From IMG/VR virus record IMGVR_UViG_2526164634_000009: a DNA stretch of 42,795 nt. The stretch is one strand, 5' to 3'. This DNA comes from a virus (lineage: Duplodnaviria; Heunggongvirae; Uroviricota; Caudoviricetes). Below are positions 23,314 through 42,795 of this stretch, one piece after another. Under the pieces are notes generated by a model. It saw nothing but the letters and a program-made list of their open reading frames with translations. It did not search any database and was not told the origin of the DNA. Positions within the stretch are counted from its first letter, which is position 1; the number at the start of each line of letters is the position of its first letter. The position numbers and the translations under genes were made by a program.

Positions 23314-23320
23314 AACCCTC

Positions 23321-25735: not shown

Positions 25736-25782
25736 GCTTCCCTGAAAAAATGCTCTGATGGCAGTCTAAAAAATCAGGTGGC

Positions 25783-25792: not shown

Positions 25793-25807
25793 TTATGGTG
25801 ACAGGAA

Positions 25808-25830
25808 ATAACCGGCAGGATGCCGGTTAT
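25808..25830. terminator. Perfect 10-bp palindrome ATAACCGGCA-GGA-TGCCGGTTAT overlapping the end of gene C
   Basis: Stem-loop with T-run on plus strand; role (middle-transcript terminator vs regulatory dyad) not resolvable. Confidence 0.35.
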
Positions 25831-26249: not shown

Positions 26250-26261
26250 ATTTTCCCCCGG

Positions 26262-26381
26262 TTAACAGACAAAAAGATACACCACGGCACTGATGGTTAT
26301 CAGAACCACAAGGGCAATCACTTTTATCGCATTAATCAGCGTGGACGGCCCGAAACATTCATCACTGAATTTTCTGTACAC
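26262..26381 (-). CDS. Candidate small hydrophobic peptide (GTG start, about 39 aa)
   Basis: Open frame with AAGGA upstream, ending in hydrophobic stretch LINAIKVIALVVLITISAVVYLFVC; below ORF-track size cut-off. Confidence 0.25.
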   Translation of the reverse strand: MYRKFSDECFGPSTLINAIKVIALVVLITISAVVYLFVC

Positions 26382-26592
26382 AATATTTTTCCTTATAACG
26401 TTGACAGTGGTGAAGAATTTCCGGCATATCAACTGACTGCCAGCCTTTCATGTAATAACTGCCGTGGGTGCCATCGTGCCCTGTGTAATCCATTGGCTTT
26501 GGTGGTGGGCCTCCGGCCTCCCGATGTAATACCTCCTGTCGTAAACGTTCACGCCTGCCGAACTGAAAGGACGCATCCCACCCTTTACCCAT
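26362..26592 (-). CDS. Hypothetical 76-aa protein translationally coupled to GH108 gene
   Basis: ATG at 26592 overlaps GH108 stop (ATGGGTAA arrangement). Confidence 0.3.
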   Translation of the reverse strand: MGKGWDASFQFGRRERLRQEVLHREAGGPPPKPMDYTGHDGTHGSYYMKGWQSVDMPEILHHCQRYKEKYCVQKIQ

Positions 26593-27145
26593 GCAGAACC
26601 TCCCGACAGGCGCTGGCGAGCAGATCCAGACGGTTAAACCAGCCATTCAGATATTTCCCCTGCGAGGCACTGGATTTGATAATCCCTGCGTAATAGCGGG
26701 AACGACGCAGGAAGCACTGCAACAGCAGCCAGTCAGTATCGGCACGCAGAACGGCTGCGCGTGTGTTTTTACCGACGATGCCATCATCATCAACACCTGC
26801 TGCCGCCTGGAGGATCTGAATCGCGCGTTTAACACCGTGCTGAACGGCAGCATCAAAAACGAATAAGGAAACGCCATCAGGCCATTCGTTACACTTTGCC
26901 GCCAGCCAGTAATCACGCCAGTAGATCTGCGCCGCCTGCTCGCGGGTTAAATCCTTAATGCGGGTATCAGGTTTTCCGTCACCGTTAACATCGGTTTTGC
27001 CATCAATAACGCCGTCGCGACGGTCAGAAATACCGTATTTCGTTTCGCCGCCACGGTCGGCAGGATCATTAACATAGCCACCTTCAACATCAGGGCGTAT
27101 AACGAAATTCAGCGAATGAAGGAATGCAGGGGAAAACTCAGGCAT
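26585..27145 (-). CDS. Glycoside hydrolase family 108-like muramidase with C-terminal peptidoglycan-binding domain
   Basis: N-terminal EGGYVNDPADRGGETKYGI motif characteristic of GH108; strong RBS AGGAGGG; first gene after terminator that follows mor. Confidence 0.65.
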   Translation of the reverse strand: MPEFSPAFLHSLNFVIRPDVEGGYVNDPADRGGETKYGISDRRDGVIDGKTDVNGDGKPDTRIKDLTREQAAQIYWRDYWLAAKCNEWPDGVSLFVFDAAVQHGVKRAIQILQAAAGVDDDGIVGKNTRAAVLRADTDWLLLQCFLRRSRYYAGIIKSSASQGKYLNGWFNRLDLLASACREVLHG

Positions 27146-27204
27146 GTTGCCCTCCTGTCATGAACGTTTTATCGTCACAACAGAATATTGAGGGCGTAAA
27201 AAAA

Positions 27205-27221
27205 GCCGGATTAACCGGCTT
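27205..27221 (-). terminator. Rho-independent terminator after mor (AGCCGG-ATTAA-CCGGCT followed by T7 on the minus strand)
   Basis: 6-bp GC stem plus seven T immediately after the stem on the transcribed strand. Confidence 0.6.
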
Positions 27222-27227
27222 TACTGT

Positions 27228-27617
27228 TTAAAACAAAGGGGGGGAACACTGACGATACTTTATACGCCGCATTCGTCGGATGGCTTTATAGACTGTGTTA
27301 AATGTCACACCATGACGGATTGCCAGTTCGTGAACATTGCGACCGTTGAAATCATTCCAGATACGCAAATCCCGAATAAGCGAATCCAGAACCTGACCGC
27401 GTGGAATGTAGACCTGACCGCCGCCCAGATGCTTACAGATAGCCACAACAATCTCCAGTGAATGGGCCGGGTCAACACCTAACCGGGACAATTCCCCGCG
27501 CAGTAAATCGTTCAGCTCCGCCAGCAGTGCCGGAAAGCGTGACGTATCCTCTGCGGGATTGTCAAGATGTGCCAGGATGGTGTCATCCTGCAAATCACCA
27601 AATAAATCTTCCGTCAT
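27228..27617 (-). CDS. mor: Middle operon regulator Mor
   Basis: 129 aa, same family as C, position after GemA. Confidence 0.85.
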   Translation of the reverse strand: MTEDLFGDLQDDTILAHLDNPAEDTSRFPALLAELNDLLRGELSRLGVDPAHSLEIVVAICKHLGGGQVYIPRGQVLDSLIRDLRIWNDFNGRNVHELAIRHGVTFNTVYKAIRRMRRIKYRQCSPPLF

Positions 27618-28165
27618 TGTGCCATCCTCCGTGTCTTTCTGGCACGGGCATAAGCCGCCGTCATGGCATCATAGCCGCGCAGTTCACGCCCGGACGGACT
27701 GACTGGCAACGGAAGCCCGTGACGGGAAAAGGCTTCACGAATACAGCGGATATGCCACTGCTTGAGAGTTTCGAGAACAATCAACAGGGTGTCGCCATGA
27801 CACCACGCCAGCGTGGAAACACCCTGTCCGCCATTACGTTTCGCCGTCAGGCGCTGAACATATTTATCCAGCGCCACATCACCGCCATCGGTAATAAAAC
27901 CGTCTTCTGCCATCTGCTGCCAGACTTTGTATACCTTCTCGCGGGGCGTGACATGCCCCTTAAAGCGGCGACGTGGATGTTTATTCAGCTTCTTAAAGCC
28001 GCGTTCTTTCATGGCATCGAGCACCTGTTCCAGTTGCGTAACCGTCAGCTCGCGGCAACTGATTTTGCCCGTTTTCTGCATCAGAAAAGCGCGGTAAGTG
28101 TCGTCGTCGAGTTGTAGCTCCCGACGGGCGACATGGATTAATTTAATCAGGGATGTGCGATTCAT
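27614..28165 (-). CDS. gemA: GemA-like regulatory protein
   Basis: 183 aa, GGAGG RBS, precedes mor with 4-nt overlap. Confidence 0.75.
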   Translation of the reverse strand: MNRTSLIKLIHVARRELQLDDDTYRAFLMQKTGKISCRELTVTQLEQVLDAMKERGFKKLNKHPRRRFKGHVTPREKVYKVWQQMAEDGFITDGGDVALDKYVQRLTAKRNGGQGVSTLAWCHGDTLLIVLETLKQWHIRCIREAFSRHGLPLPVSPSGRELRGYDAMTAAYARARKTRRMAQ

Positions 28166-28183
28166 GATCGTACCTCCGGAAAG

Positions 28184-28205
28184 AGGCGGTGCTGCAACAC
28201 CGCCT
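28184..28205. other. Perfect hairpin AGGCGGTG-CTGCAA-CACCGCCT just upstream of gemA RBS
   Basis: 8-bp stem, 6-nt loop. Confidence 0.4.
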
Positions 28206-28234
28206 GAATTTACACATCAATCAGAGAGGATTTT

Positions 28235-28501
28235 ATGGAAAATAATGTACAACCTTATGATGTTGCAGGTTATGCGATTGCATCAGCACTGGTGCGCCTT
28301 CTGGTGAAGAAGGCGATCATCACCGCAGAAGAGGGCCAGGCCATTTTCAGCTCTTCAGCAGAGATTTTAAAAGATGCGCCTGCAATAAGAACAAGCCGCC
28401 GCGAAAACATGCAACTGTCAAAGATCATGGAAGACATTATCAGTTCGTTAGACCCAGATGCTGACGGATCTCAAAAGCCTCAAACACATGAGCGTCAGTA
28501 A
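28235..28501 (+). CDS. Hypothetical 88-aa protein encoded antisense to the early operon
   Basis: ATG preceded by AGAGGA; lies in a 274-bp stretch with no minus-strand ORF of 60 aa or more. Confidence 0.4.
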   Translation: MENNVQPYDVAGYAIASALVRLLVKKAIITAEEGQAIFSSSAEILKDAPAIRTSRRENMQLSKIMEDIISSLDPDADGSQKPQTHERQ

Positions 28502-28742
28502 CAATATCCTGGTCTGATAACCCCAGCCTGCGGCGGATGTACTCCTCGCGGGCTGTTTCATTTTGCAGTGCCACTACTGTTTCCAGACGATTCATTTCGC
28601 GGTTGATAATGTCACGGACTTCTCTGGCGGTGAGATTATGCTTAATACCATATTCAACGATAGCGCGAACACGTTCCAGCATCCCTTTTTCAGCCATGAC
28701 GTTATCAATATTAAGGGGAGTAAATTTATCTTCATTGTTCAT
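28440..28742 (-). CDS. Hypothetical early protein
   Basis: 100-aa ORF in operon context. Confidence 0.5.
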   Translation of the reverse strand: MNNEDKFTPLNIDNVMAEKGMLERVRAIVEYGIKHNLTAREVRDIINREMNRLETVVALQNETAREEYIRRRLGLSDQDIVTDAHVFEAFEIRQHLGLTN

Positions 28743-29062
28743 TTTGCGGCCCTCAGAATAAATTCAGGATAAAATTTCAGACTCATTTGCCGTAACACAT
28801 CCAGTGCAGCAACGGCTGCTGATTTATCGTTGCCATCAGCAATAGCGCGGAGATTTTCAATAATCCAGTGAGGACTCAGTGACTCAGCAATAATGCCAAA
28901 CCGGTACGCCATGACCTCATCAATAGCTTTTTCATGAGACGGCTCATATACAAAATTCACAAAGTCATGCACTTCTTTTTTCGGCAAACCACCGGCAATC
29001 AGCAGGGCGGCAAGCTCTTCTGATTTTGAAAATACACCATTATTCATGTCACTCACCTTCAC
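28739..29062 (-). CDS. Hypothetical early protein
   Basis: 107-aa ORF, 4-nt overlap with neighbour. Confidence 0.5.
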   Translation of the reverse strand: MKVSDMNNGVFSKSEELAALLIAGGLPKKEVHDFVNFVYEPSHEKAIDEVMAYRFGIIAESLSPHWIIENLRAIADGNDKSAAVAALDVLRQMSLKFYPEFILRAAK

Positions 29063-29231
29063 AATTCATGCACGCCGTGTCATCGCCCATATCGCAGTGG
29101 TTACATTTCTGCCCGCCACAATGAGGGCACTCTTTCAGATATTCAGGGGATTCATTACCGCAGGTCGGGCATTCCTGTTTCACCGTGGTAAATTTCCCCA
29201 GCCACGAATACGATGTTTCATTGTTTTCCAT
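29049..29231 (-). CDS. Small zinc-ribbon protein (CPTCG...CPHCG...CNHC...CMNC)
   Basis: 60-aa ORF with four Cys pairs. Confidence 0.45.
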   Translation of the reverse strand: MENNETSYSWLGKFTTVKQECPTCGNESPEYLKECPHCGGQKCNHCDMGDDTACMNCEGE

Positions 29232-29748
29232 TGTTTACCTCCGCCTGTTTTTGCGCCCGGATAAATTCGTCAGAAAGGATTTCAGTCATGCGGCCCTGTG
29301 CGGGAGTCATCCCTGTCATGACGTAAATCACATCACCAACACGGAACCACCGGAGCGGGCCGAATATTGTTGCGCTGAAATCCAGTCCCAGTGCGGGTAA
29401 GAGAGCGTCAGTACGGGCATAAGTGACCGGAATATTCTCCTGCCATATTTTCGCCAGCTCTTTTGACTGCTCCCGCAGATGTGCAGGAATGCGCGATGTT
29501 CTTGGCCTGCAACTGTTACCTGATGCGGAGCGTTGTACAGTCCACAACTCCGGCGAGAAAGGTCGCTCATTCCCCGGAAAATTCACGCCATGAAAATGAC
29601 GCCCACCAATACCTGTGCTGAATACTGACCGGCAACCACAACCCAGAACCTTATCAAGATGGCGGGCTTCTTCGCGTAGTTTCAGGCAGTCCGCCATAAA
29701 CTGGTCCCATGCCAGCAGTGCTGCGGGATTTGACGTTTTAAAAAACAT
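29218..29748 (-). CDS. Hypothetical early protein; start taken at internal ATG 29748 overlapping upstream stop
   Basis: 176 aa from MFFKTSNPAALL... Confidence 0.5.
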   Translation of the reverse strand: MFFKTSNPAALLAWDQFMADCLKLREEARHLDKVLGCGCRSVFSTGIGGRHFHGVNFPGNERPFSPELWTVQRSASGNSCRPRTSRIPAHLREQSKELAKIWQENIPVTYARTDALLPALGLDFSATIFGPLRWFRVGDVIYVMTGMTPAQGRMTEILSDEFIRAQKQAEVNNGKQ

Positions 29749-30278
29749 CACGCCACCTCCTGCACCGCTGCGGGAGCCGGAGAACAATCAAGAATGAGAT
29801 AACGCAGTACATGGTCGGTGATATTCCAGGCGCTGGAACTGCAAATAAAACGCCCCAGCCGGATATCGATATAAGCCATCACAAAACGGGGCATTCCCTG
29901 TTCGCACATTCTGTTATCCACCTCAGCAACAATGTGAACTGACTCACAGGTCAGCACGCCCGTCGCAAACTCTTTTGCCAGCGCGGGGATGGTATTACCT
30001 TCCACCCAGGGTAATGAGCGACGCCAGTTGCACCACACCGCATCATCAACAGCAGGCTGCTCAGTTGCGTTTCGTCTTACAGGCGGCGTCGGACGCGGGC
30101 GCGGAACGTCATAAAATCCGTTGCATTCGGTGAGCACTCCGGCATCAACCGCATCACGCAGGAAATACACCATTGACGAGGGCAGCATATTCATTTTTTC
30201 AGCCAGAACTCCGCAGGTCAGGCGTCCGTAAGCCCGTAATAATGTGCTGACACCATTCAGAATTTTTGCATCAACCAT
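29748..30278 (-). CDS. Hypothetical early protein with possible N-terminal winged-helix
   Basis: 176-aa ORF. Confidence 0.5.
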   Translation of the reverse strand: MVDAKILNGVSTLLRAYGRLTCGVLAEKMNMLPSSMVYFLRDAVDAGVLTECNGFYDVPRPRPTPPVRRNATEQPAVDDAVWCNWRRSLPWVEGNTIPALAKEFATGVLTCESVHIVAEVDNRMCEQGMPRFVMAYIDIRLGRFICSSSAWNITDHVLRYLILDCSPAPAAVQEVA

Positions 30279-30376
30279 GTTTTATTCCTCAGTAATCTGT
30301 TTCAGGCGCGAGCAATCCCCTGACGTATCGCGCCATAATTAAAAGAATGTGAATTAATTAAATATTAATGGTGGTA

Positions 30377-30901
30377 TTAAATACCGGCTTCCTGTTCAAA
30401 TGGAATAATAGAAAAATCCTCAATGCCTGATTTAACTGTAATTCCGGCAACGCCTGCGACCGCTTTCGGTTCCAGTAAAATCGCTTCCTTGTTGATTTCC
30501 TGCTTCGTGCGAATAAAGCGTTGCAGGCCAAGACGCTCCAGCGTTTCCATCACTGCATCCATACCACGAATACTTACTGATGGCGGACGGACCCGCCACG
30601 ATACATCACCGGTGACAAGATTCGCCGTCTTCACTTTGCCGCCGTTCGTCAGTTCGTCGCGGTTCGCTTCACACCATCCCTGAACGCCTTTTGAAAGGGT
30701 TTCAATATCGGTTTTAATCGGTGCAATCCGGGCTGCAAATTTCTCCGTAATTTCCGCGATGGCATCATTCATTTCCGTTTCCAGACGTGATGCTTCGCGC
30801 TGTAAATCCCCGATGCGTTTAATATCGGTAATCACCGCATCGCGGTTTTGTGGCACATAAGCCGCTGCGGCACTTTTGATACGTTTTGCTGGTTTAGCCA
30901 T
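30377..30901 (-). CDS. gam: Host-nuclease inhibitor Gam (Ku-like DNA end-binding protein)
   Basis: 174 aa; matches Mu Gam as I recall it, essentially along its length. Confidence 0.9.
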   Translation of the reverse strand: MAKPAKRIKSAAAAYVPQNRDAVITDIKRIGDLQREASRLETEMNDAIAEITEKFAARIAPIKTDIETLSKGVQGWCEANRDELTNGGKVKTANLVTGDVSWRVRPPSVSIRGMDAVMETLERLGLQRFIRTKQEINKEAILLEPKAVAGVAGITVKSGIEDFSIIPFEQEAGI

Positions 30902-30920
30902 AAATTAAAGCTCCTGTTAA

Positions 30921-31220
30921 TTAATATCCGCTGTATACAATGCTGGATACAGCTCGATTGCTTAATTCCATCTTTCGGGCAATGACATGAATATCCAGTC
31001 CTTCTTTATAAAGTTCACGACATAAATATTTGTCGTGTTCACTGATTCGGTATACACACAATGATATTCCGTGCCTTCTGGCATGTGCCCGGAGGGCGGT
31101 TGTGGCGACTTTCAGTTTTTCCGCCATTTCTTCAATGGTCATTTTCCCGACGTTGGCTTCGATAAATTCCCGGTCTTCGCGTGACCAGCGCTTACGATTA
31201 CACTTCATGTCAGTCACCAT
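30921..31220 (-). CDS. Small putative DNA-binding protein (two HTH-like segments)
   Basis: 99-aa ORF. Confidence 0.45.
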   Translation of the reverse strand: MVTDMKCNRKRWSREDREFIEANVGKMTIEEMAEKLKVATTALRAHARRHGISLCVYRISEHDKYLCRELYKEGLDIHVIARKMELSNRAVSSIVYSGY

Positions 31221-31640
31221 TCAGTACAGCAGAGGCTCGCGCAGTGATGCCGGAATATGCCGCAGCGATAACTGAACCGCTTTCAGGGCAAGCGAGGAAT
31301 AACAGCAGCGCGCCCAGCCTTTTGCCATTAACCGGTAATCGCGCCAGATACGCTGCCACATTTCACGGGCTTCAGGGTCTGATGCGCAGATGTATTCCCG
31401 GTCCATGACGTACTCCCATAAATCCACGTTGAACGCACCGCCAAATGCAATGGCGCGGGATATGCTTTCGCCGCAATAACGTGCACAGATGCTGTAATGG
31501 TCGAAAGCAATCAGGTAAGTCTTTTCACCACAATCATCAACTTTCCGGGCGCAAATAAACTCGCGTAATTCACCACCGTTGTTATTGCGTTCCTGAATTC
31601 GGATTAATGCCTGAATTTCATTTCGGATTTTGACGTTCAT
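31221..31640 (-). CDS. Hypothetical early protein (Cys-rich)
   Basis: 139-aa ORF. Confidence 0.5.
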   Translation of the reverse strand: MNVKIRNEIQALIRIQERNNNGGELREFICARKVDDCGEKTYLIAFDHYSICARYCGESISRAIAFGGAFNVDLWEYVMDREYICASDPEAREMWQRIWRDYRLMAKGWARCCYSSLALKAVQLSLRHIPASLREPLLY

Positions 31641-31660
31641 TGTCAGCGTTCCTTTGCGAA

Positions 31661-31930
31661 TTAATGTTTAACCGCATTCACCGGATGTGGTACTAAATCA
31701 CATTCAGCTTCCATACCCACTTTCTTCATAGTGGTCAGCATCTCATCTTTGGCCTTTTTAATAATTTCAGGAGCCATAGTCAGGACGATATTTGCCAGTA
31801 AATCATGAGGCCCGATATTTTCCGTTGGCGAGATATCTGCAAGACATGCTTTTGCATCCAGAACTTCTCTGCGCCCATTGCAACCGTCACTACTTTCCAG
31901 CCATGTAAACTCAAAGATAACTTTTGCCAT
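31661..31930 (-). CDS. Hypothetical early protein
   Basis: 89-aa ORF. Confidence 0.5.
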   Translation of the reverse strand: MAKVIFEFTWLESSDGCNGRREVLDAKACLADISPTENIGPHDLLANIVLTMAPEIIKKAKDEMLTTMKKVGMEAECDLVPHPVNAVKH

Positions 31931-32168
31931 TTTGCGTCTCCTTATTGATTCTGAATAACTGCGCTGGCTTTTACCTTCGCGCCTTTTACCTGCTTAAAGA
32001 AAACCGCGCTGCACCACGGACAACATGCAAAGGAGTCCCATACTTCATTTTCTGGTGAGCATTGCGTCATAATTTGCTCTTTGCATTTGGGGCAATTAAA
32101 TGCAGTCAGAGCCACATTGTTATTCTGTACCCGTTTAACCCATTCAATATATTTTTCAGCTTTAGTAC

Positions 32169-33225
32169 GGCTTTGTTGAATAAATCAGATTTCGGGTAAG
32201 TCTCCCCCGTAGCGGGTTGTGTTTTCAGGCAATACGCACGCTTTCAGGCATACCTGCTTTCGTCATTTTGTTCAGCGCTCGTACCAGGGCCATAGCCTCT
32301 GCAACCTGACCATCGTAGTCACGCAGTGTCAGTGAACCTCCGAACAGCTGTTTTACCCGGTACATCGCCGTTTCCGCTATCGAGCGACGGTTGTAATCTG
32401 TTGTCCATTTCCACCGCGCATTACTCCCGGTCATTCGCTGATTAGCCACTGCACGGTTACGGTCTGCATATTCACCGGGCCAGTAACCCGCACCTTTTCG
32501 GGGAGGGATAAGGGCGCTGATTTTCTTACGCCGCAGTTCATCGTGACAGAGCCGGGTGTCGTAAGCGCCGTCTGCCGATGCTGCCCTGATTTTTCTGTGA
32601 GTCTGCCGGATAAGACCCGGGAAGGCTTCTGAGTCCGTTACGTTGTTCAGCGACAGGTCTGCACAGATGATTTCATGTGTGTTGCTGTCAACGGCCAGAT
32701 GCAACTTCCGCCAGATACGACGGCGTTCTTTGCCGTGTTTTTTGACTTTCCATTCGCCTTCACCAAAGACCTTCAGCCCGGTGGAATCAATCACCAGATG
32801 CGCGATTTCACCTCGGGTGAACGTTTTGAAACTGACATTAACCGACTTTGCGCGCTTGCTGACACTGGTGTAATCCGGGCAGCGCAACGGAACATTTATC
32901 AGTGTAAAAATGGAATCAATAAAACCCTGTGCAGCCCGCAGGGTCAGCCTGAACACGCGTTTAATGACCAGAACGGTGGTGATGGCGAGATCAGAATAGC
33001 GCTGAGGTCTTCCCCGTGATGAAGGCGTTGCCGACTCATACCAGGCCTGAATAGCTTCATCATCCAGCCAGAAAGTTATGGAGCCACGGTTGATGAGGGC
33101 TTTATTGTAGGTGGGCCAGTTGGTGATTTTGAACTTTTGCTTTGCCACGGAACGGTCTGCGTTGTCGGGAAGATACGTGATCTGATCCTTCAACTCAGCA
33201 AAAGTTCGATTTATTCAACAAAGCC
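32169..33225 (-). mobile_element. IS903-like element (IS5 family), 1057 bp, 9-bp target duplication CTTTAGTAC at 32160-32168 and 33226-33234
   Basis: Perfect 18-bp terminal inverted repeats GGCTTTGTTGAATAAATC, single transposase ORF, identical 9-bp flanking repeats. Confidence 0.9.
32225..33193 (-). CDS. tnp: IS903-type transposase (DDE); true start may be internal
   Basis: ORF contains FKITNWPTYNKALINRGSITFWLDDEAIQAWY region that I recognise as IS903 transposase. Confidence 0.9.
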   Translation of the reverse strand: MKDQITYLPDNADRSVAKQKFKITNWPTYNKALINRGSITFWLDDEAIQAWYESATPSSRGRPQRYSDLAITTVLVIKRVFRLTLRAAQGFIDSIFTLINVPLRCPDYTSVSKRAKSVNVSFKTFTRGEIAHLVIDSTGLKVFGEGEWKVKKHGKERRRIWRKLHLAVDSNTHEIICADLSLNNVTDSEAFPGLIRQTHRKIRAASADGAYDTRLCHDELRRKKISALIPPRKGAGYWPGEYADRNRAVANQRMTGSNARWKWTTDYNRRSIAETAMYRVKQLFGGSLTLRDYDGQVAEAMALVRALNKMTKAGMPESVRIA

Positions 33226-33240
33226 CTTTAGTACACATCG

Positions 33241-33468
33241 TTATCTCCAGATAATCTGGCAACCATTAAGACGGGCCGTCCATACAGAACGGGCCACCCC
33301 GGACTTATGCTCCATAATTCTGACCGCGTTTTTTACCAGTTCCACCGGTGGGTAAGTGATTTCAAGAATCGGACGCGCCACGCCGAGATATGATTCATTT
33401 ACATGACTCCCGCGCGCCTGTAACCAGTTCTGCGCATCCGTTGCCATTTTTATATTTCGGGCCATCAT
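33241..33468 (-). CDS. Small early protein immediately downstream of B (position of Mu kil)
   Basis: 75-aa ORF; position-based only. Confidence 0.4.
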
Positions 33469-33483
33469 AATTTCTTCTCCTTC

Positions 33484-34422
33484 TTAATTACGCAGCAGCG
33501 TTGAAATATCAACGTCCAGGTCTAATTCACGGAAAGCCTGACGCAGATAATCTTCGTTAACACGCTCACCTTTACCGTGAGCCGTCATGGCGGCAAGGCG
33601 AAGTGAATGATTCAGAATGCGAAGCGCACCTGGTTTCTGCGCAATCTGCTGTAATAACTCCAGTTCTTTTTCACCGTTAATCTGCCAGGCATCCGCAATA
33701 GCTTTTACATCGGCTTTTTTGGTTTTATTAATTGCAGTGCGCTTTGCAATACGGGAAAACAGACGGGCAAATTCAACCGTTCTGTTACCCCCCGTCATAT
33801 TTGAATAAACCCGGTGATTTCCCATCAGCACAAGGCCAATACGGGTTGATTCCTGTAACAGGCGGAGTTCTTCCAGAACCTCGGCACCAAGATGATCAGC
33901 TTCGTCGATGATAACCAGCCCCTGTGTACCTTCAAGGCGACGTCGCAGGGCGCGGGAGAGCGGCCCTTTACGGCGTGGTGCGTCATTCATTCCCAGCTCA
34001 AACGCCAGTTCAGTAAGACATTCCAGAACGCTGGCACAGGATGGCGTAATGGTGATCATCCAGACATTGTTATTGGTGCGGCGATATTCACGGGCCGCTT
34101 CGGTTTTACCCACACCAGGATTGCCACATACAACAGCAATACTTTCAGTCAGGCTGGCAAAACGCATACTTGTCCAGATTTGTTTTACCGTCTGCGTTTC
34201 CACAAAGCGGGGCGGCTCAGGTAGTTCTGCAACTGCATGATATTTTTCCAGCCAGCGTTGCAGAATTTGTGAAACACGCTCGTTATCCCCGTTGTACTTA
34301 TCATTGATAAAACTACTGATAGTTCCGGTAGAAAGCCCGCTCTCAAGAGCAATTTGTTTAAAGGTGGTTTCTTCATTTTCTACAAGCGTGCGCAGTTCTG
34401 CGCGAATATCGGAAATATTCAT
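33484..34422 (-). CDS. B: Transposition ATPase B (MuB-like AAA+)
   Basis: 312 aa, Walker A GNPGVGKT, follows A. Confidence 0.85.
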   Translation of the reverse strand: MNISDIRAELRTLVENEETTFKQIALESGLSTGTISSFINDKYNGDNERVSQILQRWLEKYHAVAELPEPPRFVETQTVKQIWTSMRFASLTESIAVVCGNPGVGKTEAAREYRRTNNNVWMITITPSCASVLECLTELAFELGMNDAPRRKGPLSRALRRRLEGTQGLVIIDEADHLGAEVLEELRLLQESTRIGLVLMGNHRVYSNMTGGNRTVEFARLFSRIAKRTAINKTKKADVKAIADAWQINGEKELELLQQIAQKPGALRILNHSLRLAAMTAHGKGERVNEDYLRQAFRELDLDVDISTLLRN

Positions 34423-34460
34423 CTGAATAACCTCGTAATTAAATTTTGTTTAAACGTTAA

Positions 34461-36554
34461 TTAAATGGCTTTTTTACGTCTGTTCTGTTCCAGAATATCC
34501 AGCGAATGATTCAGATATTCATCACGCTCAGTTTCGTATTCATCATCATGCTCTTCCTCACACCTCAACGGCTGAACGGTCACCACATTACCAACAGGGC
34601 GATAAACATTATCCAGCCAGGGTTCTATCGTTTTTTGTTCAATAACCTGAATACCTTCATCCTCAGCATCACGTATTTTTTCCTCAGCACGCTTGCGCAT
34701 TCCTTTAATACGTTGCTGTTGTTTGTGATATTCAGCCGTAACAGGAAAGGCTGCGCGTTTATTGCCGTTCCATATCGCCTCACAGATAAAGCTACCGTCC
34801 TTACGGCGTACCGTAATTCGCTCGGCATCGTGAATGTCATAGCTGATAAGTACCTTGCGACCATGTTCATCACGTAGCTCTGGCGCGTAGTAAATATTGT
34901 TCAGCCACTGGATTTCGCAGCGTCTTACCGGACGCTCCACCATCGGGCGGAACATGTCACGCAGCTCAATATCACTCAGCCACTCAATTTCAGTGTCTTC
35001 TTCCGCTAAGCGTTTTTTTCTGAACTCTGCCGGGCTGTAATGTTTTCCGTTTGGTTTCATCGGCAATTCAGAATGTGGGCGGTTGTTGTACCACTCCACC
35101 CCCTCACGGATAGCCTCAATCAGTTCTGACCAAGACGGCAGCTCGCGCATTGCGGCTTTCTGACGGGCGCTCAGTGGCTTGTCCTGTTGCAGGGCATTAA
35201 ACGCTGAACGCAGATCACGATTAAGTACTCGCAACGATTCCCGGTCAGCCCCCTTGCCGAAATAGGTGCGATACCTCCTTGCTATACGCATCGGTAACGT
35301 CCGGTTCAGGCGCTCAATAATGCCGCGTCCCTGCGGATTTCCCGCAATACCAGTGGGGTGGTTAATCCCCAGGCGGGGCAGAATCCCGACGATCTCTTTA
35401 TCCAGCATATCTGCCGTTTCACCGGAACCATTATCCGAGTAATACAGGAATGGTTTTCCGTGATTGCGAATGCCGTGTTGTATCGCCCCGGCAACAGCGA
35501 ACACGTTCTCCGCAAGATCAAGACTCCAGCCAACCACAAACCGGGTTCCACCGTCGATCACAAACGTAACTTCCGGTGAAAATGGACGCCCGTGAACCGG
35601 ATGCGCACATTTCAGCTTCATACCGTGACCGTCACCAATCCAGACATAATTCACCGGCATAGCTGTCCAGTCGCGGCGGGTGAATCCTTCAAGCTGACGG
35701 TATTCACTGCCGGTAACGCGCCCTTTTTGTTTCACCACTTCCGGCAGTTTTTTCATGGCATACCGGACAACATCATAGGAAGGCATCACCTCCAGCATGT
35801 ATGGTTCGTCCGCATGGCGACGCTGCCAATCAGCGACAAAATCCTCGTATGCTTCTGACATAGGCCTGCCGTTAGCCTGACGATACTGCGCCAGAAATTC
35901 AGGCAGCCAGCTAATTTCTTCCGGTTTTATTTCGTCGCGCTTTCCTGGTGCCAGTAACAGCAATCGTTCTGCGGCATTCTGTGCTTTGTTAAACGCAGCT
36001 ATCCAACGTTTGAGCGTAATTGCGCTCAGAGTTCGCTCTTTCCCTTTACGGGCATTAGCAGTAATGACCAAAGATTCCAGGCGTTCTTCCAGGTTACCCT
36101 GCGCTAACCGCGACACAATAAAACGTATAGCGCTGGCACAACTGAATCCCGGCTCCTGGCTAATTCGTAGAACTTCACAGACAAGAGCAATACGCGCTTC
36201 TGCAACTTTACGTTGATTTTCCGTAAGCGCATTCAGACGCTCTTCTACCAATTGTGGCGAACCGCGATATGCCTCAACAGGCTGTACAACATTTTGTTTG
36301 CGTTCACGCTTTACAGGAGGCTGGGTAGTTATCTCCTGCGGGGCGGTTGCCATCAGTTGAGCTACATGGCGCTCACGTAACGCCCGTTGTGTAACCGGAG
36401 GGAGGCAGTCGATGCTGTATTCAATGGTTTTTGAACCCGCACGTTTGCGCCTGAAATGCTCAGATGAGGCCAGTTTCCTTATGGAATACCGCACCCCTTG
36501 CGCAGTTCCCGGCATACCCGGTAGCCCTACAAGCTCATTAACTGACACAAACAT
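34461..36554 (-). CDS. A: DDE transposase A (MuA-like)
   Basis: 697 aa; C-terminal tail DDEYETERDEYLNHSLDILEQNRRKKAI matches Mu A as remembered, N-terminal DNA-binding region diverged. Confidence 0.9.
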   Translation of the reverse strand: MFVSVNELVGLPGMPGTAQGVRYSIRKLASSEHFRRKRAGSKTIEYSIDCLPPVTQRALRERHVAQLMATAPQEITTQPPVKRERKQNVVQPVEAYRGSPQLVEERLNALTENQRKVAEARIALVCEVLRISQEPGFSCASAIRFIVSRLAQGNLEERLESLVITANARKGKERTLSAITLKRWIAAFNKAQNAAERLLLLAPGKRDEIKPEEISWLPEFLAQYRQANGRPMSEAYEDFVADWQRRHADEPYMLEVMPSYDVVRYAMKKLPEVVKQKGRVTGSEYRQLEGFTRRDWTAMPVNYVWIGDGHGMKLKCAHPVHGRPFSPEVTFVIDGGTRFVVGWSLDLAENVFAVAGAIQHGIRNHGKPFLYYSDNGSGETADMLDKEIVGILPRLGINHPTGIAGNPQGRGIIERLNRTLPMRIARRYRTYFGKGADRESLRVLNRDLRSAFNALQQDKPLSARQKAAMRELPSWSELIEAIREGVEWYNNRPHSELPMKPNGKHYSPAEFRKKRLAEEDTEIEWLSDIELRDMFRPMVERPVRRCEIQWLNNIYYAPELRDEHGRKVLISYDIHDAERITVRRKDGSFICEAIWNGNKRAAFPVTAEYHKQQQRIKGMRKRAEEKIRDAEDEGIQVIEQKTIEPWLDNVYRPVGNVVTVQPLRCEEEHDDEYETERDEYLNHSLDILEQNRRKKAI

Positions 36555-36556
36555 TT

Positions 36557-36793
36557 TTATGCCACCTTACGAGCGTAACGGCTGGGCCAGATCTCCTCCG
36601 GCGCAACACCAATAGCATCAGCAATAATGCGCTCATATTTTGGGCATTTGCGGTACAGGGCATTCTTTAAAGAATCCTGGTTTAAACCGGCTTCAATGGA
36701 CAGAGAGCGTAAAGTAAAACCTTTTACATGCACCGCCGCGACAACATGCGCGGGGTGCCAGTCCTGTTTAACAACTTCATTTATAGACATCAT
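36557..36793 (-). CDS. ner: Ner-like DNA-binding regulator (start taken at internal ATG 36793)
   Basis: C-terminal IIADAIGVAPEEIWPSRY resembles Ner family; AAGGA RBS before internal ATG. Confidence 0.7.
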   Translation of the reverse strand: MMSINEVVKQDWHPAHVVAAVHVKGFTLRSLSIEAGLNQDSLKNALYRKCPKYERIIADAIGVAPEEIWPSRYARKVA

Positions 36794-36973
36794 TCGTTTA
36801 TCCTTAAAAGTTATCTGTGCGGATAACACCGCCGGATAATCTCTGCGGATAAAGTATTGATCCACATGTGGCGCATGTAAAGCAAAAATTTGATTTTCTT
36901 TTGCCTGATGTGGATCATCTGTGTTTTCTATTGAAATTATCCTTTTGTATCAATTAGATAAGAGGAAAGAAAA
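36794..36973. promoter_or_regulatory. Divergent early/repressor promoter-operator region
   Basis: Three CGGATAA repeats 13 bp apart (36818-36852) and inverted repeat TGATCCACAT / ATGTGGATCA (36858-36867, 36909-36918) between divergent ner and c. Confidence 0.5.
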
Positions 36974-37519
36974 ATGGATAAGCTGAAAGGAAAGTCACTT
37001 TCTTTGCCGGAAGTGACAAAAGAAAGTATCCCGGAGCGTTTGAGAGAATTAATTGGAAAAAGAAGTGTAAGGGCTGCTGCGAAAGATTGGGGGTTGTCTT
37101 TTTCTACTTTAAACAATTACCTGACGCGAGGTACTGAACCTTCACTCAGTGTGGCTCGGCAGATAGCTGCAATTGAAGGGGTTACTATCGAATGGATATG
37201 TGGATCACATGATGATTCATATGAGAATCACCCAATTTCAACTAACACGCATAATGAGAATACAAAACTCATTATGAACATCATTAACGCCTTGGATGCA
37301 AAGGATATTGAGCGACTATCTAAGACTCTTGCCCTCAATGGTGCTAAGTATCTGACTCAAATGTTGGAACCCGAAAATCAAGGCTTACTGCGTCTTGAAG
37401 GACGAAAACGTGTCGCCGCGCTGCTATTAGATGATTTACCTGATGAGCGTATCAGAGAGATTTTGGAAGAAATTGAGAGCAGCAAACTCTCAAGTAGTGT
37501 AAAATCGAGAGCGGGCTAG
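36974..37519 (+). CDS. c: Prophage repressor (c-like, HTH)
   Basis: 181 aa, divergent from ner, HTH-like segment near N-terminus. Confidence 0.7.
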   Translation: MDKLKGKSLSLPEVTKESIPERLRELIGKRSVRAAAKDWGLSFSTLNNYLTRGTEPSLSVARQIAAIEGVTIEWICGSHDDSYENHPISTNTHNENTKLIMNIINALDAKDIERLSKTLALNGAKYLTQMLEPENQGLLRLEGRKRVAALLLDDLPDERIREILEEIESSKLSSSVKSRAG

Positions 37520-37583
37520 TTCAATTAGCCCGCAGTGAACAGATTTTGAAGGCATTTAAAATGCTAAAATTGCAGTAACGCGT

Positions 37584-37745
37584 AGTATCAAATATTTTTT
37601 CGTTTTTAGCTTTCTTTGCGATGGTAGTATCAAATCGCATGTTGTGCGCATAACACTGTTTTATGTCATAACTGTTTGTTTTATCCCATCAAATCCCGTT
37701 TAATCCACTTTCCTCCCGGATTTTTCACCAGTATCAAATAATTTA
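37584..37745. repeat. Mu-like left-end attachment region with three AGTATCAAAT repeats (37584, 37626, 37730), candidate transposase-binding sites
   Basis: Spacing 42 and 104 bp mirrors Mu L3-L2-L1; adjacent tract (revcomp AAAAATCCGGGAGGAAAGTGGATTAAACGGGATTTGATGGGAT) resembles remembered Mu left end. Confidence 0.5.
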
Positions 37746-38077
37746 CCTCTCTATACGACTATGAGGAGAAATTGCTTATTGCCAGATGGGAACTGACAGC
37801 AGAACAGGCTGTTACACAGCAGTTAAAAAATGAGGTGTCAAAAGGAAAACTGATTGACACCGGGTTCTGTATTTTTGCCCTCAGTAAGCTGGCAATGGCG
37901 TTATCCAGTACGCTTGATTCCATCCCTTTATCCATGCAGCGACAGTTTCCTGATTTAACACCGCGCCATCTTGACCATCTGAAAACCATTATTGCGAAGG
38001 GGGCAAATCAGTGTGCGCGGGCAGGGGATAAATTACCGGATTTACTCGATGAATATATCAGAGCAACAACTGAATAA
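37742..38077 (+). pseudogene. nu1: Lambda-like terminase small subunit nu1, 3' fragment only (truncated by Mu-like prophage insertion)
   Basis: Frame opens only at 37742 after in-frame TAA; translated C-terminal part resembles lambda Nu1 C-terminus and overlaps A start as in lambda. Confidence 0.7.
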
Positions 38078-39977
38078 TATGATGGCTGCCGTTTCGGTTG
38101 CGCTGCAGCCTCTGGTCAGGGTTGTACCAATGACGGCAGTTGAATGGGCTGATCAAAATTATTATCTGCCTAAAGAATCTTCATATGGTGAGGGAGAATG
38201 GAAAACGCTGCCATTCCAGATCGCCATTATGAACTGTATGGGTAACGACCAGGTTCGCACGGTTAACCTGATTAAATCTGCCCGTGTTGGCTATACAAAG
38301 ATGTTGCTGGGGGTGGTCGGGTATTTTATTGAGCATAAATCCCGAAACAGTCTGCTTTTTCAGCCCACGGATTCTGCCGCTGAAGATTTTATGAAGTCTC
38401 ACGTGGAGGCGACGATTCGGAACGTGCCATGCCTGAAAGACCTTTCCCCATGGCTGGGTCGTAAACATCGTGACAATACTCTCACGCTGAAACGCTTTTC
38501 ATCGGGCGTCGGTTTCTGGTGCCTGGGCGGCGCTGCCGCCAAAAACTACCGTGAAAAATCCGTGGACGTGGTCTGCTATGACGAACTTTCCTCGTTCGAG
38601 CCGGATGTCGAAAAAGAGGGCTCGCCAACCCTGCTGGGGGATAAGCGTATTGAGGGGTCGGTGTGGCCAAAATCCATTCGCGGCTCGACGCCTAAAATCA
38701 AAGGCACCTGCCAGATCGAAAAAGCCGCTAACGAGTCGGCGCATTTTATGCGTTTTTATGTGCCCTGCCCGCACTGTGGGGAGGAGCAGTATCTGAAATT
38801 TGGCGATGAGTCCACGCCTTTTGGGCTTAAATGGGAGAAGGACAGCCCTGAAAGTGTTTTCTACCTCTGTGAACATCATGGCTGCGTGATCCATCAGTCT
38901 GAGCTTGACCAGAGCAACGGGCGGTGGATCTGTGAAAACACGGGCATGTGGACCCGTGACGGTCTGACGTTTTTCAGCGCCCGGGGTGATGAAATTCCGC
39001 CGCCGCGCTCCATCATGTTCCATATCTGGACGGCGTACAGTCCGTTCACCACCTGGGTACAGATTGTCTATGACTGGCTGGATGCACTGAAAGATCCCAA
39101 CGGCCTGAAAACCTTTGTGAACACCACGCTGGGCGAGACCTGGGAAGAGGCCGTGGGCGAAAAACTCGATCACCAGGTACTGATGGATAAGGTGGTGCGT
39201 TACACGGCGGCGGTGCCTGCCCGGGTGGTTTATCTGACGGCGGGCATTGACTCGCAGCGAAACCGTTTTGAGATGTATGTCTGGGGATGGGCTCCGGGAG
39301 AGGAAGCCTTTCTGGTGGATAAAATCATCATTATGGGGCGTCCTGATGAGGAAGAGACGCTGTTACGTGTGGATGCGGCGATCAACAAAAAATACCGCCA
39401 TGCGGATGGCACCGAAATGACTATTTCCCGTGTCTGCTGGGACACCGGGGGGATCGATGGTGAAATTGTTTATCAGAGATCAAAAAAACACGGTGTTTTC
39501 CGGGTGCTGCCGGTAAAAGGCGCATCTGTCTATGGCAAGCCGGTGATCACCATGCCAAAAACCCGCAATCAGCGGGGCGTGTATCTGTGTGAAGTGGGAA
39601 CGGATACCGCAAAAGAAATTCTCTATGCCCGTATGAAAGCCGATCCCACGCCTGCGGATGAAGCCACGTCGTATGCCATCCGTTTTCCTGATGATCCGGA
39701 GATTTTTTCGCAGACAGAGGCGCAGCAACTGGTGGCGGAAGAGCTGGTGGAGAAGTGGGAAAAAGGAAAGATGCGTCTGCTGTGGGATAACAAAAAGCGG
39801 CGTAACGAAGCGCTGGACTGCCTGGTGTATGCCTACGCGGCATTACGTGTGTCCGTGCAACGCTGGCAGCTTGATCTGGCTGTACTGGCAAAATCCCGGG
39901 AAGAAGAGACGACCCGGCCAACCCTGAAAGAACTGGCAGCGAAGCTGTCCGGAGGAGTGAATGGTTACAGTCGCTGA
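38049..39977 (+). CDS. A: Lambda-like terminase large subunit gpA
   Basis: Start at MNISEQQ (38049); conserved terminase blocks including VGYTKMLLGV, GDKRIEGSVWPKSIRGSTPK, WTAYSPFTTWVQIV. Confidence 0.9.
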   Translation: MNISEQQLNNMMAAVSVALQPLVRVVPMTAVEWADQNYYLPKESSYGEGEWKTLPFQIAIMNCMGNDQVRTVNLIKSARVGYTKMLLGVVGYFIEHKSRNSLLFQPTDSAAEDFMKSHVEATIRNVPCLKDLSPWLGRKHRDNTLTLKRFSSGVGFWCLGGAAAKNYREKSVDVVCYDELSSFEPDVEKEGSPTLLGDKRIEGSVWPKSIRGSTPKIKGTCQIEKAANESAHFMRFYVPCPHCGEEQYLKFGDESTPFGLKWEKDSPESVFYLCEHHGCVIHQSELDQSNGRWICENTGMWTRDGLTFFSARGDEIPPPRSIMFHIWTAYSPFTTWVQIVYDWLDALKDPNGLKTFVNTTLGETWEEAVGEKLDHQVLMDKVVRYTAAVPARVVYLTAGIDSQRNRFEMYVWGWAPGEEAFLVDKIIIMGRPDEEETLLRVDAAINKKYRHADGTEMTISRVCWDTGGIDGEIVYQRSKKHGVFRVLPVKGASVYGKPVITMPKTRNQRGVYLCEVGTDTAKEILYARMKADPTPADEATSYAIRFPDDPEIFSQTEAQQLVAEELVEKWEKGKMRLLWDNKKRRNEALDCLVYAYAALRVSVQRWQLDLAVLAKSREEETTRPTLKELAAKLSGGVNGYSR

Positions 39978-40167
39978 ACTGCAGGCGCTGCGTCAGGCGC
40001 GCCTTGATTTATTAACCGGTAAACGGGTGGTGTCTGTCCAGAAAGATGGTCGCAGAATTGAATATACGGCGGCTTCTCTGGATGAGCTTAACCGGGCGAT
40101 CAATGATGCGGAGTCGGTACTGGGGACAACCCGACGTCGCCGTCGTCCGCTGGGAGTGAGGTTATGA
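39961..40167 (+). CDS. W: Head-tail joining protein gpW
   Basis: 68 aa, between A and B. Confidence 0.8.
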   Translation: MVTVAELQALRQARLDLLTGKRVVSVQKDGRRIEYTAASLDELNRAINDAESVLGTTRRRRRPLGVRL

Positions 40168-41756: not shown

Positions 41757-42795
41757 TCTTTCACACATTATTGCCGCAGCATTCAATGAACCGCTGCTTC
41801 TGGAGCCCGCCTATGCGCGGGTTTTCTTTTGCGCGCTCGGGCGCGAGATGGGGGCAGCAAGTCTTTCGGTACCACAACAGCAGGTACAGTTTGATGCTCC
41901 CCGGAATGCTGGCTGAAACGGACGAGTACATGGCCGGAGGTAAACGACCGGCCCGTGTTTACAGGGTGGTGAACGGTATTGCTGTACTGCCGGTGACCGG
42001 CACGCTGGTGCACCGGCTGGGGGGTATGCGGCCATTTTCCGGAATGACAGGCTATGACGGTATTGTCGCCTGTCTTCAGCAGGCAATGGCGGATAGCCAG
42101 GTGCGGGGCGTACTGCTGGACATTGACAGTCCGGGCGGGCAGGCCGCCGGCGCGTTTGACTGCGCTGACATGATTTACCGCCTCCGTCAGCAGAAGCCGG
42201 TCTGGGCACTGTGCAATGACACGGCCTGTTCTGCAGCCATGCTGCTGGCGTCGGCCTGCTCCCGACGGCTGGTTACCCAGACATCCCGTATCGGCTCCAT
42301 TGGCGTGATGATGAGCCATGTCAGCTATGCCGGTCATCTGGCGCAGGCCGGTGTGGATATCACGCTGATTTACTCAGGGGCGCACAAGGTGGATGGCAAT
42401 CAGTTTGAAGCCTTACCGGCAGAGGTTCGCCAGGACATGCAGCAGCGCATTGATGCGGCGCGCCGGATGTTTGCCGAAAAAGTGGCCATGTTTACCGGTC
42501 TGTCTGTTGATGCCGTCACGGGAACAGAGGCCGCCGTTTTTGAAGGTCAGTCCGGCATTGATGCCGGGCTGGCGGATGAATTAGTCAATGCGTCGGATGC
42601 CATCAGTGTGATGGCCACGGCGCTGAACAGTAATGTCAGAGGAGGCACTATGCCGCAATTAACTGCAACGGAAGCCGCCGCGCAGGAGAACCAGCGAGTG
42701 ATGGGGATCCTGACATGCCAGGAAGCGAAAGGACGTGAACAGCTTGCCACGATGCTGGCAGGACAACAGGGCATGAGCGTTGAACAGGCCCGGGC
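41746..42795 (+). CDS. C: Lambda-like head protease/scaffold gpC, 3' end outside window; apparent +1 frame change near 41880-41915
   Basis: N-terminal 56 codons (VRRNLSHIIAAAFNEPLLLEPAYARVFFCAL...) stop at TGA 41914-41916; remainder (RVVNGIAVLPVTGTLV... to window end) is in the +1 frame. Confidence 0.6.

What the first reader, a model, noticed from the sequence alone, without database searches (positions are those of the whole stretch)
37520..38100. Mu-like transposable prophage inserted inside the terminase small-subunit gene of a lambda-like prophage
The Mu-type repressor gene ends at 37519 and is followed by three AGTATCAAAT repeats with Mu L1-L2-L3-like spacing. Within about 40 bp, a reading frame opens after an in-frame TAA and encodes only the C-terminal half of a lambda Nu1-like protein, continuing into intact A, W and B. 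The lambda-like packaging gene therefore appears split by the Mu-like element, and the nu1 5' half and cos should lie beyond the Mu right end outside this window. This gives a prophage-in-prophage arrangement in which the inner element probably inactivates the outer one.
Basis: partly seen in the sequence, partly recalled or inferred. Interest (0 to 1): 0.8.

Follow-up and report, generated by a model that had tools for sequence, protein, structure and literature searches.

The report
Mu-like prophage splitting lambdoid nu1 gene
A transposable Mu-like prophage has jumped into the small-terminase (nu1) gene of a lambda-like prophage in an E. coli O111-type strain. This confirms a "prophage inside a prophage", but it is an ordinary result of random Mu-type transposition, not a new kind of system.

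Summary

**Source and inner element.** The window is the whole contig AIHD01000025.1 of E. coli DEC12D. A Mu-like prophage lies reversed at 1..37755. Eleven or more independent insertions in other genomes share the sequence up to '...TTTACCTCTCTATA' (37755) and diverge right after it.

**Left junction.** From 37756 the DNA is 99.8% identical to intact 169-codon nu1 genes. Only codons 64-169 are present in the window.

**Right junction.** I found it in two IMG/VR contigs: cos, nu1 codons 1-64, then the Mu right end, mom, com and gin. One of the two genomes also carries the left junction. The target duplication is CGAC, so 4 bp and not 5.

**Repeats.** The three AGTATCAAAT copies are real, at 37584, 37626 and 37730. 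They mirror three sites at the right end.

- The repressor is Mu-like by position only.
- The transposase is of the vB_YpM_5/SuMu type, not MuA.
- The termini are TA...TA.
- The inner prophage is itself broken by an IS66-family element and carries an IS903-like element.

**Verdict.** This is a new instance of a known phenomenon, of low to moderate interest.

The parts
1..37755 (-). Mu-like transposable prophage, reversed in the window. About 2,972 bp of its right end (rest of the G segment, gin, com, mom, attR) lie off the contig start. The total is about 40,727 bp including two IS.
   Evidence: 99.9-100% identical to the 37.19-kb prophage in E. coli 12A, apart from two IS and the G segment. 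Annotation of 12A. Bridging through L026.
1..1796 (.). Part of the invertible G segment (tail fibre and tail-fibre-assembly genes). It is inverted relative to 12A and to the end of L025, which probably caused the contig break.
6807..9260 (-). IS66-family element (tnpA 134 aa, tnpB 115 aa, tnpC 512 aa). Its 8-bp duplication CGATGAAA is at 6799-6806 and 9261-9268. It splits the DNA-circularisation (Mu N-like) gene.
   Evidence: The gene is intact in 12A.
32169..33225 (-). IS903-like element, 1057 bp, with 18-bp inverted repeats. Its 9-bp duplication CTTTAGTAC is at 32160-32168 and 33226-33234. It sits between the kil-like and gp6-like early genes.
33484..34422 (-). MuB-type AAA+ transposition ATPase
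   Evidence: Pfam Phage-MuB_C 5e-34 and AAA_22
34461..36554 (-). DDE transposase A, 697 aa
   Evidence: Pfam Mu-transpos_C and HTH_Tnp_Mu_1. 99.4% identical to vB_YpM_5, 43% to SuMu. Matches Mu/D108 A only over the last ~150 aa. The PDB search matches only the MuA N-terminal domain.
36557..36793 (-). ner-like early regulator, 78 aa
   Evidence: Pfam HTH_35
36974..37519 (+). Immunity repressor. It sits where Mu c sits and points the same way, but it is XRE/HTH-type.
   Evidence: phrog_3037 5e-58, weak HTH_3, no real similarity to Mu c
37520..37755 (-). Left attachment end (attL) of the Mu-like element. The terminal dinucleotide TA is at 37754-37755.
   Evidence: Eleven or more independent insertions share this sequence up to 37755 and then diverge. 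Partly alignable to Mu nt 25-70.
37584..37593 (+). AGTATCAAAT repeat, L3-like putative transposase-binding site
37626..37635 (+). AGTATCAAAT repeat, L2-like site
37730..37739 (+). AGTATCAAAT repeat, L1-like site. It lies at the same distance from its terminus as the first right-end site.
37756..37759 (+). CGAC, one copy of the 4-bp target duplication. The other copy abuts the Mu right end in L025 and L026.
37756..38077 (+). 3' fragment of lambdoid nu1 (codons 64-169 of 169). The called ORF starts at TTG 37772.
   Evidence: 99.8% identical to intact nu1 genes. Pfam Phage_Nu1 positions 86-163/164.
38049..39977 (+). Terminase large subunit gpA, 642 aa, full length
   Evidence: GpA_ATPase and GpA_nuclease. 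Same length as in RM14723.
39961..40167 (+). gpW head-tail joining protein
   Evidence: PF02831
40164..41756 (+). Portal protein gpB
   Evidence: PF05136 Phage_portal_2
41894..42795 (+). S49 head protease (gpC-like), running off the contig end
   Evidence: PF01343

Best explanation
**What happened.** A roughly 37.2-kb Mu-like transposable phage made a simple transpositional insertion into codon 63/64 of the small-terminase gene nu1 of a resident lambdoid prophage. It duplicated 4 bp of target (CGAC). The phage is of the vB_YpM_5 type, with Mu-like late genes and a SuMu/D3112-clade transposase.

**Resulting order.** Q, nanS-like esterase, lysis genes, rha, cos, nu1(1-64), then the Mu-like element reversed (attR, mom, com, gin, G, tail, head, early genes, B, A, ner, c, attL), then nu1(64-169), A, W, B, C.

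**Effect on the outer prophage (inferred).** The N-terminal cos-binding part of Nu1 is now separated from its gpA-binding part. The cos site is separated from the head genes by about 40.7 kb. The outer prophage should therefore be unable to package a viable genome and is 'grounded'.

**Effect on the inner prophage (inferred).** It later received an IS66-family element in its DNA-circularisation gene and an IS903-like element in its early operon. It is therefore probably defective for making particles. Its ends, repressor, A and B are intact.

**Inheritance.** The arrangement is passed on vertically in a small E. coli lineage.

**Shown versus inferred.** Both junctions, the duplication, the element boundaries and the IS insertions are shown. 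Loss of function of both prophages is inferred.
For: - **Identity of the inner element.** A, B, ner and the repressor are identified by Pfam and PHROGs. The element is 99.9-100% identical to the prophage in 12A.
- **Boundary at 37755.** It is set by eleven or more different flanks.
- **Intact nu1 for comparison.** A 169-codon nu1 that is 99.8% identical continues upstream, where the window switches to Mu.
- **Right junction.** L025 and L026 read cos, nu1 codons 1-64, then TAAAGCGCGC..., mom, com and gin. The left junction is present in the same IMG genome.
- **Predicted product.** The 64-aa N-terminal product predicted before the junction was seen exists in the protein collection on 28 contigs.
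- **Mobility of the element.** The same element sits at many unrelated loci (ppsR, mscM, ydcO, ycjP, a P2-like prophage and others) with 4-bp duplications in 6 of 6 simple cases.
- **IS insertions.** Both have their own duplications, and the empty sites are seen in 12A.
- **Outer late region.** Identified.
Against: - The right junction was read in two related assemblies (IMG 2526164633 and 638341084), not in DEC12D's own contigs, which the tools could not reach.
- In 2 of the 5 copies examined in complete genomes, the two flanks of this element are different genes, i.e. Mu-associated deletions. A single junction alone would therefore not have proved a simple insertion.
- No complete E. coli genome among 5,426 carries either junction.
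- Inactivation of either prophage has not been tested.
Confidence: 0.93

Rival explanations
1. Assembly artefact: the contig is a chimera that joins a Mu-like end to a lambdoid terminase region through a short repeat.
For: The window is a short-read draft contig. Both of its ends fall in repeated phage DNA (G segment and lambdoid head genes).
Against: The same left junction occurs in an independent assembly (L027). The reciprocal right junction, with a matching 4-bp duplication, occurs in two assemblies. The breakpoint coincides to the base with the element end defined elsewhere.
Confidence: 0.02
2. In DEC12D itself the junction comes from a Mu-mediated deletion or inversion, so the nu1 5' half is not next to the right end.
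For: In 12A copy 2 and in FDAARGOS_1059, the two flanks of this element are different genes (ymjC-like SDR versus the ycjF side or ycjP).
Against: Sister genomes with an identical Mu side (0 mismatches in 3,369 bp) have the reciprocal junction with nu1 codons 1-64 and the CGAC duplication.
Confidence: 0.04
3. The 101-aa ORF is a naturally short, complete Nu1-like gene, and the Mu-like element merely lies beside it.
For: Short Nu1-like proteins (80-114 aa) are annotated in E. coli, and one PHROG profile (phrog_1790, 114 positions) is covered almost end to end.
Against: Homologues that are 99.8% identical have 169 codons, and their homology stops exactly at the Mu terminus. Pfam covers only positions 86-163 of 164. 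The missing 64 codons sit at the other end of the element.
Confidence: 0.01
4. The insertion is not neutral chance. Either this Mu-like phage prefers resident prophage packaging genes, or hosts whose lambdoid prophage was disabled were selected.
For: A second nested case exists: the same element lies next to the capsid gene of a P2-like prophage (L017). The nu1 insertion persists in at least three assemblies.
Against: Most insertion sites seen are ordinary chromosomal genes. Two of about 15 sites in prophages fits random insertion into prophage-rich genomes. No target motif appears beyond the 4-bp duplications.
Confidence: 0.08

Closest known systems
Yersinia phages vB_YpM_5 / vB_YpM_6 (Muvirus; PMC10434027)
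   Same: The transposase is 99.4% identical. The left end is 86% identical in DNA, with the same three repeats and the same right-end sequence.
   Different: Those are free, plaque-forming phages. The window's copy is a prophage that carries two IS and sits inside another prophage.
Coliphage Mu / D108 / SfMu
   Same: - Gene order c, ner, A, B, kil, gam ... mor, lysis, head, tail, G segment, gin, com, mom
- MuB-type ATPase
- Three repeats at each end with the L1...L2-L3 and R1-R2...R3 pattern
- Near-random insertion
- Part of attL aligns to Mu nt 25-70
   Different: - The transposase core is not MuA-like.
- The repressor is unrelated to Mu c.
- The termini are TA...TA instead of TG...CA.
- The duplication is 4 bp instead of 5 (Mu values from PMC3145075).
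Insertional 'grounding' of prophages by mobile elements (reviewed in PMC6379469; defective prophage pool of O157 Sakai, PMC2669165). Classical Mu insertions into prophage lambda are recalled from my own knowledge and were not checked.
   Same: A mobile element interrupts an essential phage gene and leaves a resident, vertically inherited defective prophage.
   Different: Here the interrupting element is a whole 37-kb phage, and it is itself interrupted by IS elements, giving three levels of nesting.
TA-TA-ended transposable prophages of Leptospira, and phage B3 (PMC8705779)
   Same: TA dinucleotides at both termini instead of TG/CA. The duplication length differs from Mu's 5 bp.
   Different: Those give 6-bp duplications and have Tn552-related transposases. 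This element gives 4 bp.
Lambda terminase Nu1/gpA and cos
   Same: Order cos, nu1, A, W, B, C. The GGGCGGCGACCT cohesive-end sequence lies upstream (that this 12-mer is lambda's cohesive end is from my own knowledge).
   Different: nu1 is split into codons 1-64 and 64-169, about 40.7 kb apart.

Membership tests
Mu-like transposable phages | DDE transposase with Mu-type N-terminal DNA-binding and C-terminal domains, next to a MuB-type ATPase | tested here: met
   Pfam Mu-transpos_C 1.9e-18, HTH_Tnp_Mu_1 1.6e-6, Phage-MuB_C 5e-34
Mu-like transposable phages | Several transposase-binding repeats at both ends, widely spaced at the left end and close together at the right end | tested here: met
   TTGATAC cores at L 19-25, 123-129 and 165-171, and at R 19-25, 41-47 and 76-82. 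Binding itself was not tested.
Mu-like transposable phages | Insertion at many unrelated sites, flanked by a short target duplication | tested here: met
   More than 15 different flanks. Duplications found in 6 of 6 simple insertions.
Mu-like transposable phages | Repressor next to the left end, transcribed divergently from ner-A-B | tested here: met
   ORF map
Mu sensu stricto (Mu/D108/SfMu) | Terminal 5'-TG...CA-3' and a 5-bp duplication | tested here: not met
   Termini are TATAGAG...GCGCTTTA and duplications are 4 bp. Mu values from PMC3145075.
Mu sensu stricto (Mu/D108/SfMu) | MuA-type catalytic core and Mu c-type repressor | tested here: not met
   D108 A matches only residues 548-697. 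The PDB MuA core was not hit. Repressor versus Mu c gives E=0.003 over 15 aa.
Mu-like transposable phages | [quoted passage not shown] | not testable with these tools
   Only a hint: the circular vB_YpM_5 record has 80 bp of unrelated DNA between its two ends.
Lambda-like cos packaging module | Full-length Nu1 with the N-terminal cos-binding domain | tested here: not met
   The window copy covers Pfam positions 86-163/164 only. Codons 1-64 lie beyond the Mu right end.
Lambda-like cos packaging module | gpA (ATPase and nuclease), W, portal B and S49 protease in that order, with cos upstream of nu1 | tested here: met
   cos sequence in L001 and L025.
IS66 family | Three ORFs tnpA-tnpB-tnpC and an 8-bp duplication | tested here: met
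   Pfam HTH_Tnp_1, TnpB_IS66 and DDE_Tnp_IS66. CGATGAAA is duplicated.
IS903 group (IS5 family) | 1057 bp, 18-bp inverted repeats, 9-bp duplication | tested here: met
   The IS903 reference values are from my own knowledge.

The most novel reading that the evidence does not exclude
The vB_YpM_5-type 'Muvirus' lineage found here is a natural hybrid. It has Mu-like late genes and Mu-like end architecture, but its transposase comes from the SuMu/D3112 clade.

Its ends are TA-3' rather than CA-3', and it apparently joins them to target phosphates 4 bp apart instead of Mu's 5. In the papers I searched, a 4-bp duplication is not among the values given for transposable phages; one review lists 5 bp and 6 bp (PMC8705779).

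If the 4-bp stagger is real, this lineage would be a close-to-Mu model for how transpososome geometry sets the stagger.
Probability: 0.55. Interest if true: 0.45.

Novelty: new member of a known kind. Interest (0 to 1): 0.27.

Why it matters
- **Prophage decay.** This is a clean, fully resolved example of how prophage-rich pathogenic E. coli accumulate defective prophages. One phage disables another, and IS elements then disable the first. The disabled lambdoid prophage, with its Q, nanS-like and lysis region, is thereby fixed in the chromosome.
- **Annotation.** The Mu insertion leaves nu1 as two ORFs. DEC12D's annotation calls the 3' piece 'DNA packaging Nu1'. The 64-aa 5' product is named 'hypothetical protein' elsewhere. 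The case also shows why draft assemblies break here.
- **Side finding.** The TA termini, the 4-bp duplication and the non-MuA transposase in a phage filed under Muvirus may interest transposition specialists.

Tried and rejected
- **Species-representative genomes.** Two scans with the predicted right junction and the observed left junction found nothing. The strain is not a species representative.
- **Complete E. coli genomes.** A megablast of both junctions against 5,426 genomes found no genome covering either one.
- **Mom as an anchor.** I searched for Mom homologues hoping to use Mom to reach the right-end contig. The 90% cluster representative is a Salmonella protein, not the exact sequence, so that route failed.
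- **What worked.** IMG/VR scans found both junctions.
- **5-bp duplication.** I shifted the assumed termini by one base in either direction. This fits only 2 of 6 cases by chance, so I rejected it.
- **The 64-aa product as proof.** I considered treating its presence as proof on its own. I rejected this because N-terminal 'partial' fragments of many lengths (47-155 aa) exist in the same cluster.
- **Literature.** Searches found no description of this particular insertion.
Full report
**Source.** An exact look-up of the 101-aa Nu1-like product shows that the window is the entire 42,795-bp contig AIHD01000025.1 of assembly GCA_000250275.2. Its protein EHX50330.1 is named 'DNA packaging Nu1 [Escherichia coli DEC12D]'. 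Everything beyond the window therefore lies on other contigs of a draft assembly.

**The observation.**
- On the minus strand lie a MuB-type ATPase (33484..34422), a 697-aa DDE transposase (34461..36554) and a ner-like gene (36557..36793).
- On the plus strand, diverging from them, lies a 181-aa repressor gene that ends at 37519.
- The 10-mer AGTATCAAAT occurs exactly three times in the window, at 37584, 37626 and 37730. About 0.08 exact copies are expected by chance.
- The frame that opens after the TAA at 37739-41 gives a product matching Pfam Phage_Nu1 only at profile positions 86-163 of 164.
- It runs into a full-length gpA, then W, the portal protein and an S49 protease.

**Where the element ends.**
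- Megablast of 37300-38300 against 5,426 complete E. coli genomes splits the query cleanly. Positions 37755 onward are 99.6-99.8% identical to 'terminase small subunit / large subunit' in many genomes. The part before that matches Mu-like prophages and Yersinia phage vB_YpM_5.
- Copies of the same element lie in ppsR and near ycjF (strain 12A), ycjP (FDAARGOS_1059), mscM (JCKP02), near patD (S6) and ydcO (strain 1290). Ten further contigs hold copies next to a caiD-region gene, an EAL-domain gene, the his operon, a P2-like prophage and others.
- All of them share the sequence up to '...AATTTACCTCTCTATA' and diverge at the next base.
- The left terminus is therefore window position 37755.

**What was interrupted.**
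- In strain RM14723 the homologous nu1 has 169 codons with a GTG start. It is preceded by a lambda-type cos sequence (GGGCGGCGACCT...).
- The alignment shows intact '...GATAGCGAAGACGACTATGAGGAG...' against the window's '...CCTCTCTATA|CGACTATGAGGAG...'.
- The window thus keeps codons 64-169.

**The other junction.**
- From the right end of the element in 12A, JCKP02 and others ('TAAAGCGCGCAAAATCATTTGATACC'), I predicted that the nu1 5' fragment would read ...GAA GAC GAC | TAA. That gives a 64-aa product.
- That exact 64-aa sequence is in the protein collection on 28 contigs. Many other partial lengths exist in the same cluster, so this alone is weak evidence.
- Scans of representative genomes and of complete E. 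coli genomes found no junction.
- A scan of IMG/VR did. Contig IMGVR_UViG_2526164633_000014 (L025) reads lysozyme, Rz, rha, cos, nu1 codons 1-64, 'TAAAGCGCGC...', mom, com, gin and the start of the G segment.
- The same IMG genome holds the window's left junction on a 43.2-kb contig (L027). Its Mu side is identical to the window over 3,369 bp.
- A second genome (L026, IMG 638341084) has the same right junction. It continues through the G segment into window positions 1-769, and upstream it carries Q, a nanS-like esterase and the lysis genes.
- The two junctions share CGAC, so this was a simple insertion with a 4-bp duplication.
- The element as it stands in this lineage is about 40,727 bp.

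**State of the inner prophage.**
- Against the 37.19-kb copy in 12A, the window is 99.94-100% identical except for three things.
- An IS66-family element at 6807-9260, with duplication CGATGAAA, splits the 'DNA circularization protein' gene.
- An IS903-like element at 32169-33225, with duplication CTTTAGTAC, lies between the kil-like and gp6-like genes.
- The G segment is inverted, which explains the contig break.
- The ends, repressor, ner, A and B are identical to those in 12A.

**How it works.**
- Shown: both junctions, the duplication, the boundaries and the nesting.
- Inferred from established lambda biology, from my own knowledge: Nu1's N-terminal domain binds cosB and its C-terminal part holds gpA, so the split should abolish terminase assembly at cos.
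- Also inferred: with 40.7 kb inserted between cos and A, a cos-to-cos unit would exceed the lambda head capacity. The outer prophage should be unable to produce viable particles.
- The inner prophage should be unable to make infectious particles because its N-like gene is split. It may still transpose.

**How Mu-like is it.**
- The organisation is Mu's. vB_YpM_5 is filed under Muvirus and is described as close to Mu, D108 and SfMu (PMC10434027).
- Both ends carry three TTGATAC cores, with the first at nt 19-25 from each terminus and R2 22 bp after R1. Part of attL aligns with Mu nt 25-70.
- The transposase, however, is 43% identical to that of Haemophilus SuMu and about 31% to the Pseudomonas D3112 type. 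It matches D108 A only over residues 548-697. A PDB search finds only the MuA N-terminal domain.
- The repressor is unrelated to Mu c.
- The termini are TA...TA. Six of six simple insertions have 4-bp duplications: CGAC, CGCG, CTTA, TTAA, TCAC and GCAC.
- Mu cleaves at terminal CA and duplicates 5 bp (PMC3145075). TA-TA ends and 6-bp duplications are known in other transposable prophages (PMC8705779).

**Caveat.** In 12A copy 2 and in FDAARGOS_1059, the two flanks of the element are different genes, which indicates Mu-associated deletions. A single junction would not have sufficed, and for DEC12D itself the right junction is inferred from sister assemblies.

**Verdict.**
- Mu-type phages insert almost at random. 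Prophages make up a sizeable share of such genomes, and a second nested case, inside a P2-like prophage, turned up in passing.
- This is therefore a well-documented new instance of a known phenomenon, not a new mechanism.
- The termini and the 4-bp duplication are the only mildly unexpected features.

Noticed in passing
window 37754-37759; L025:2509-2516; L008:364-369 and 37578-37584: The Mu-like element has TA...TA termini and a 4-bp target duplication in 6 of 6 simple insertions. Mu itself has CA termini and a 5-bp duplication.
   Followed up: partly
window 34461-36554 (-): The transposase is not MuA-like in its core. It is 99.4% identical to vB_YpM_5, 43% to Haemophilus SuMu and about 31% to the Pseudomonas D3112 type. 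Only the last ~150 aa match D108/Mu A. The phage is thus a mosaic of Mu-like late genes and a different transposition module.
   Followed up: partly
window 6807-9260: An IS66-family element (tnpA, tnpB, tnpC; 8-bp duplication CGATGAAA) splits the DNA-circularisation (Mu N-like) gene of the inner prophage.
   Followed up: yes
window 32169-33225: An IS903-like element (1057 bp; 9-bp duplication CTTTAGTAC) lies in the early operon between the kil-like and gp6-like genes.
   Followed up: yes
window 1-1796; L025:4171-4848: The G-segment tail-fibre region is inverted relative to 12A and to the sister assembly. The contig starts inside it, so G inversion or its inverted repeats probably broke the assembly.
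   Followed up: partly
L009 / L004 (FDAARGOS_1059); L024 / L018 (12A copy 2): In both strains the right end abuts a ymjC-like SDR gene. The left end abuts ycjP in one strain and the ycjF side in the other. This points to Mu-associated adjacent deletions of different extent from one ancestral insertion.
   Followed up: no
L017 (GCA_031626895.1, JANFJY010000001.1: 1700301-1706846): The same Mu-like element ends directly next to the capsid and small-terminase genes of a P2-like prophage. This is a second prophage-in-prophage case.
   Followed up: no
window 40358-40730 versus L027: 21 mismatches cluster in the portal gene, while the Mu side is identical (0 mismatches in 3,369 bp). This suggests recombination among lambdoid prophages after the insertion, or assembly mixing.
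   Followed up: no
L002:3357-3440 (vB_YpM_5 record): The 'circular' phage record has about 80 bp of unrelated DNA between the left and right termini. This is probably packaged host flank and not phage sequence.
   Followed up: no
window 37505-37530: An 8-bp inverted repeat, GCGGGCTA...TAGCCCGC, spans the repressor stop codon. It may be a terminator or a regulatory hairpin.
   Followed up: no
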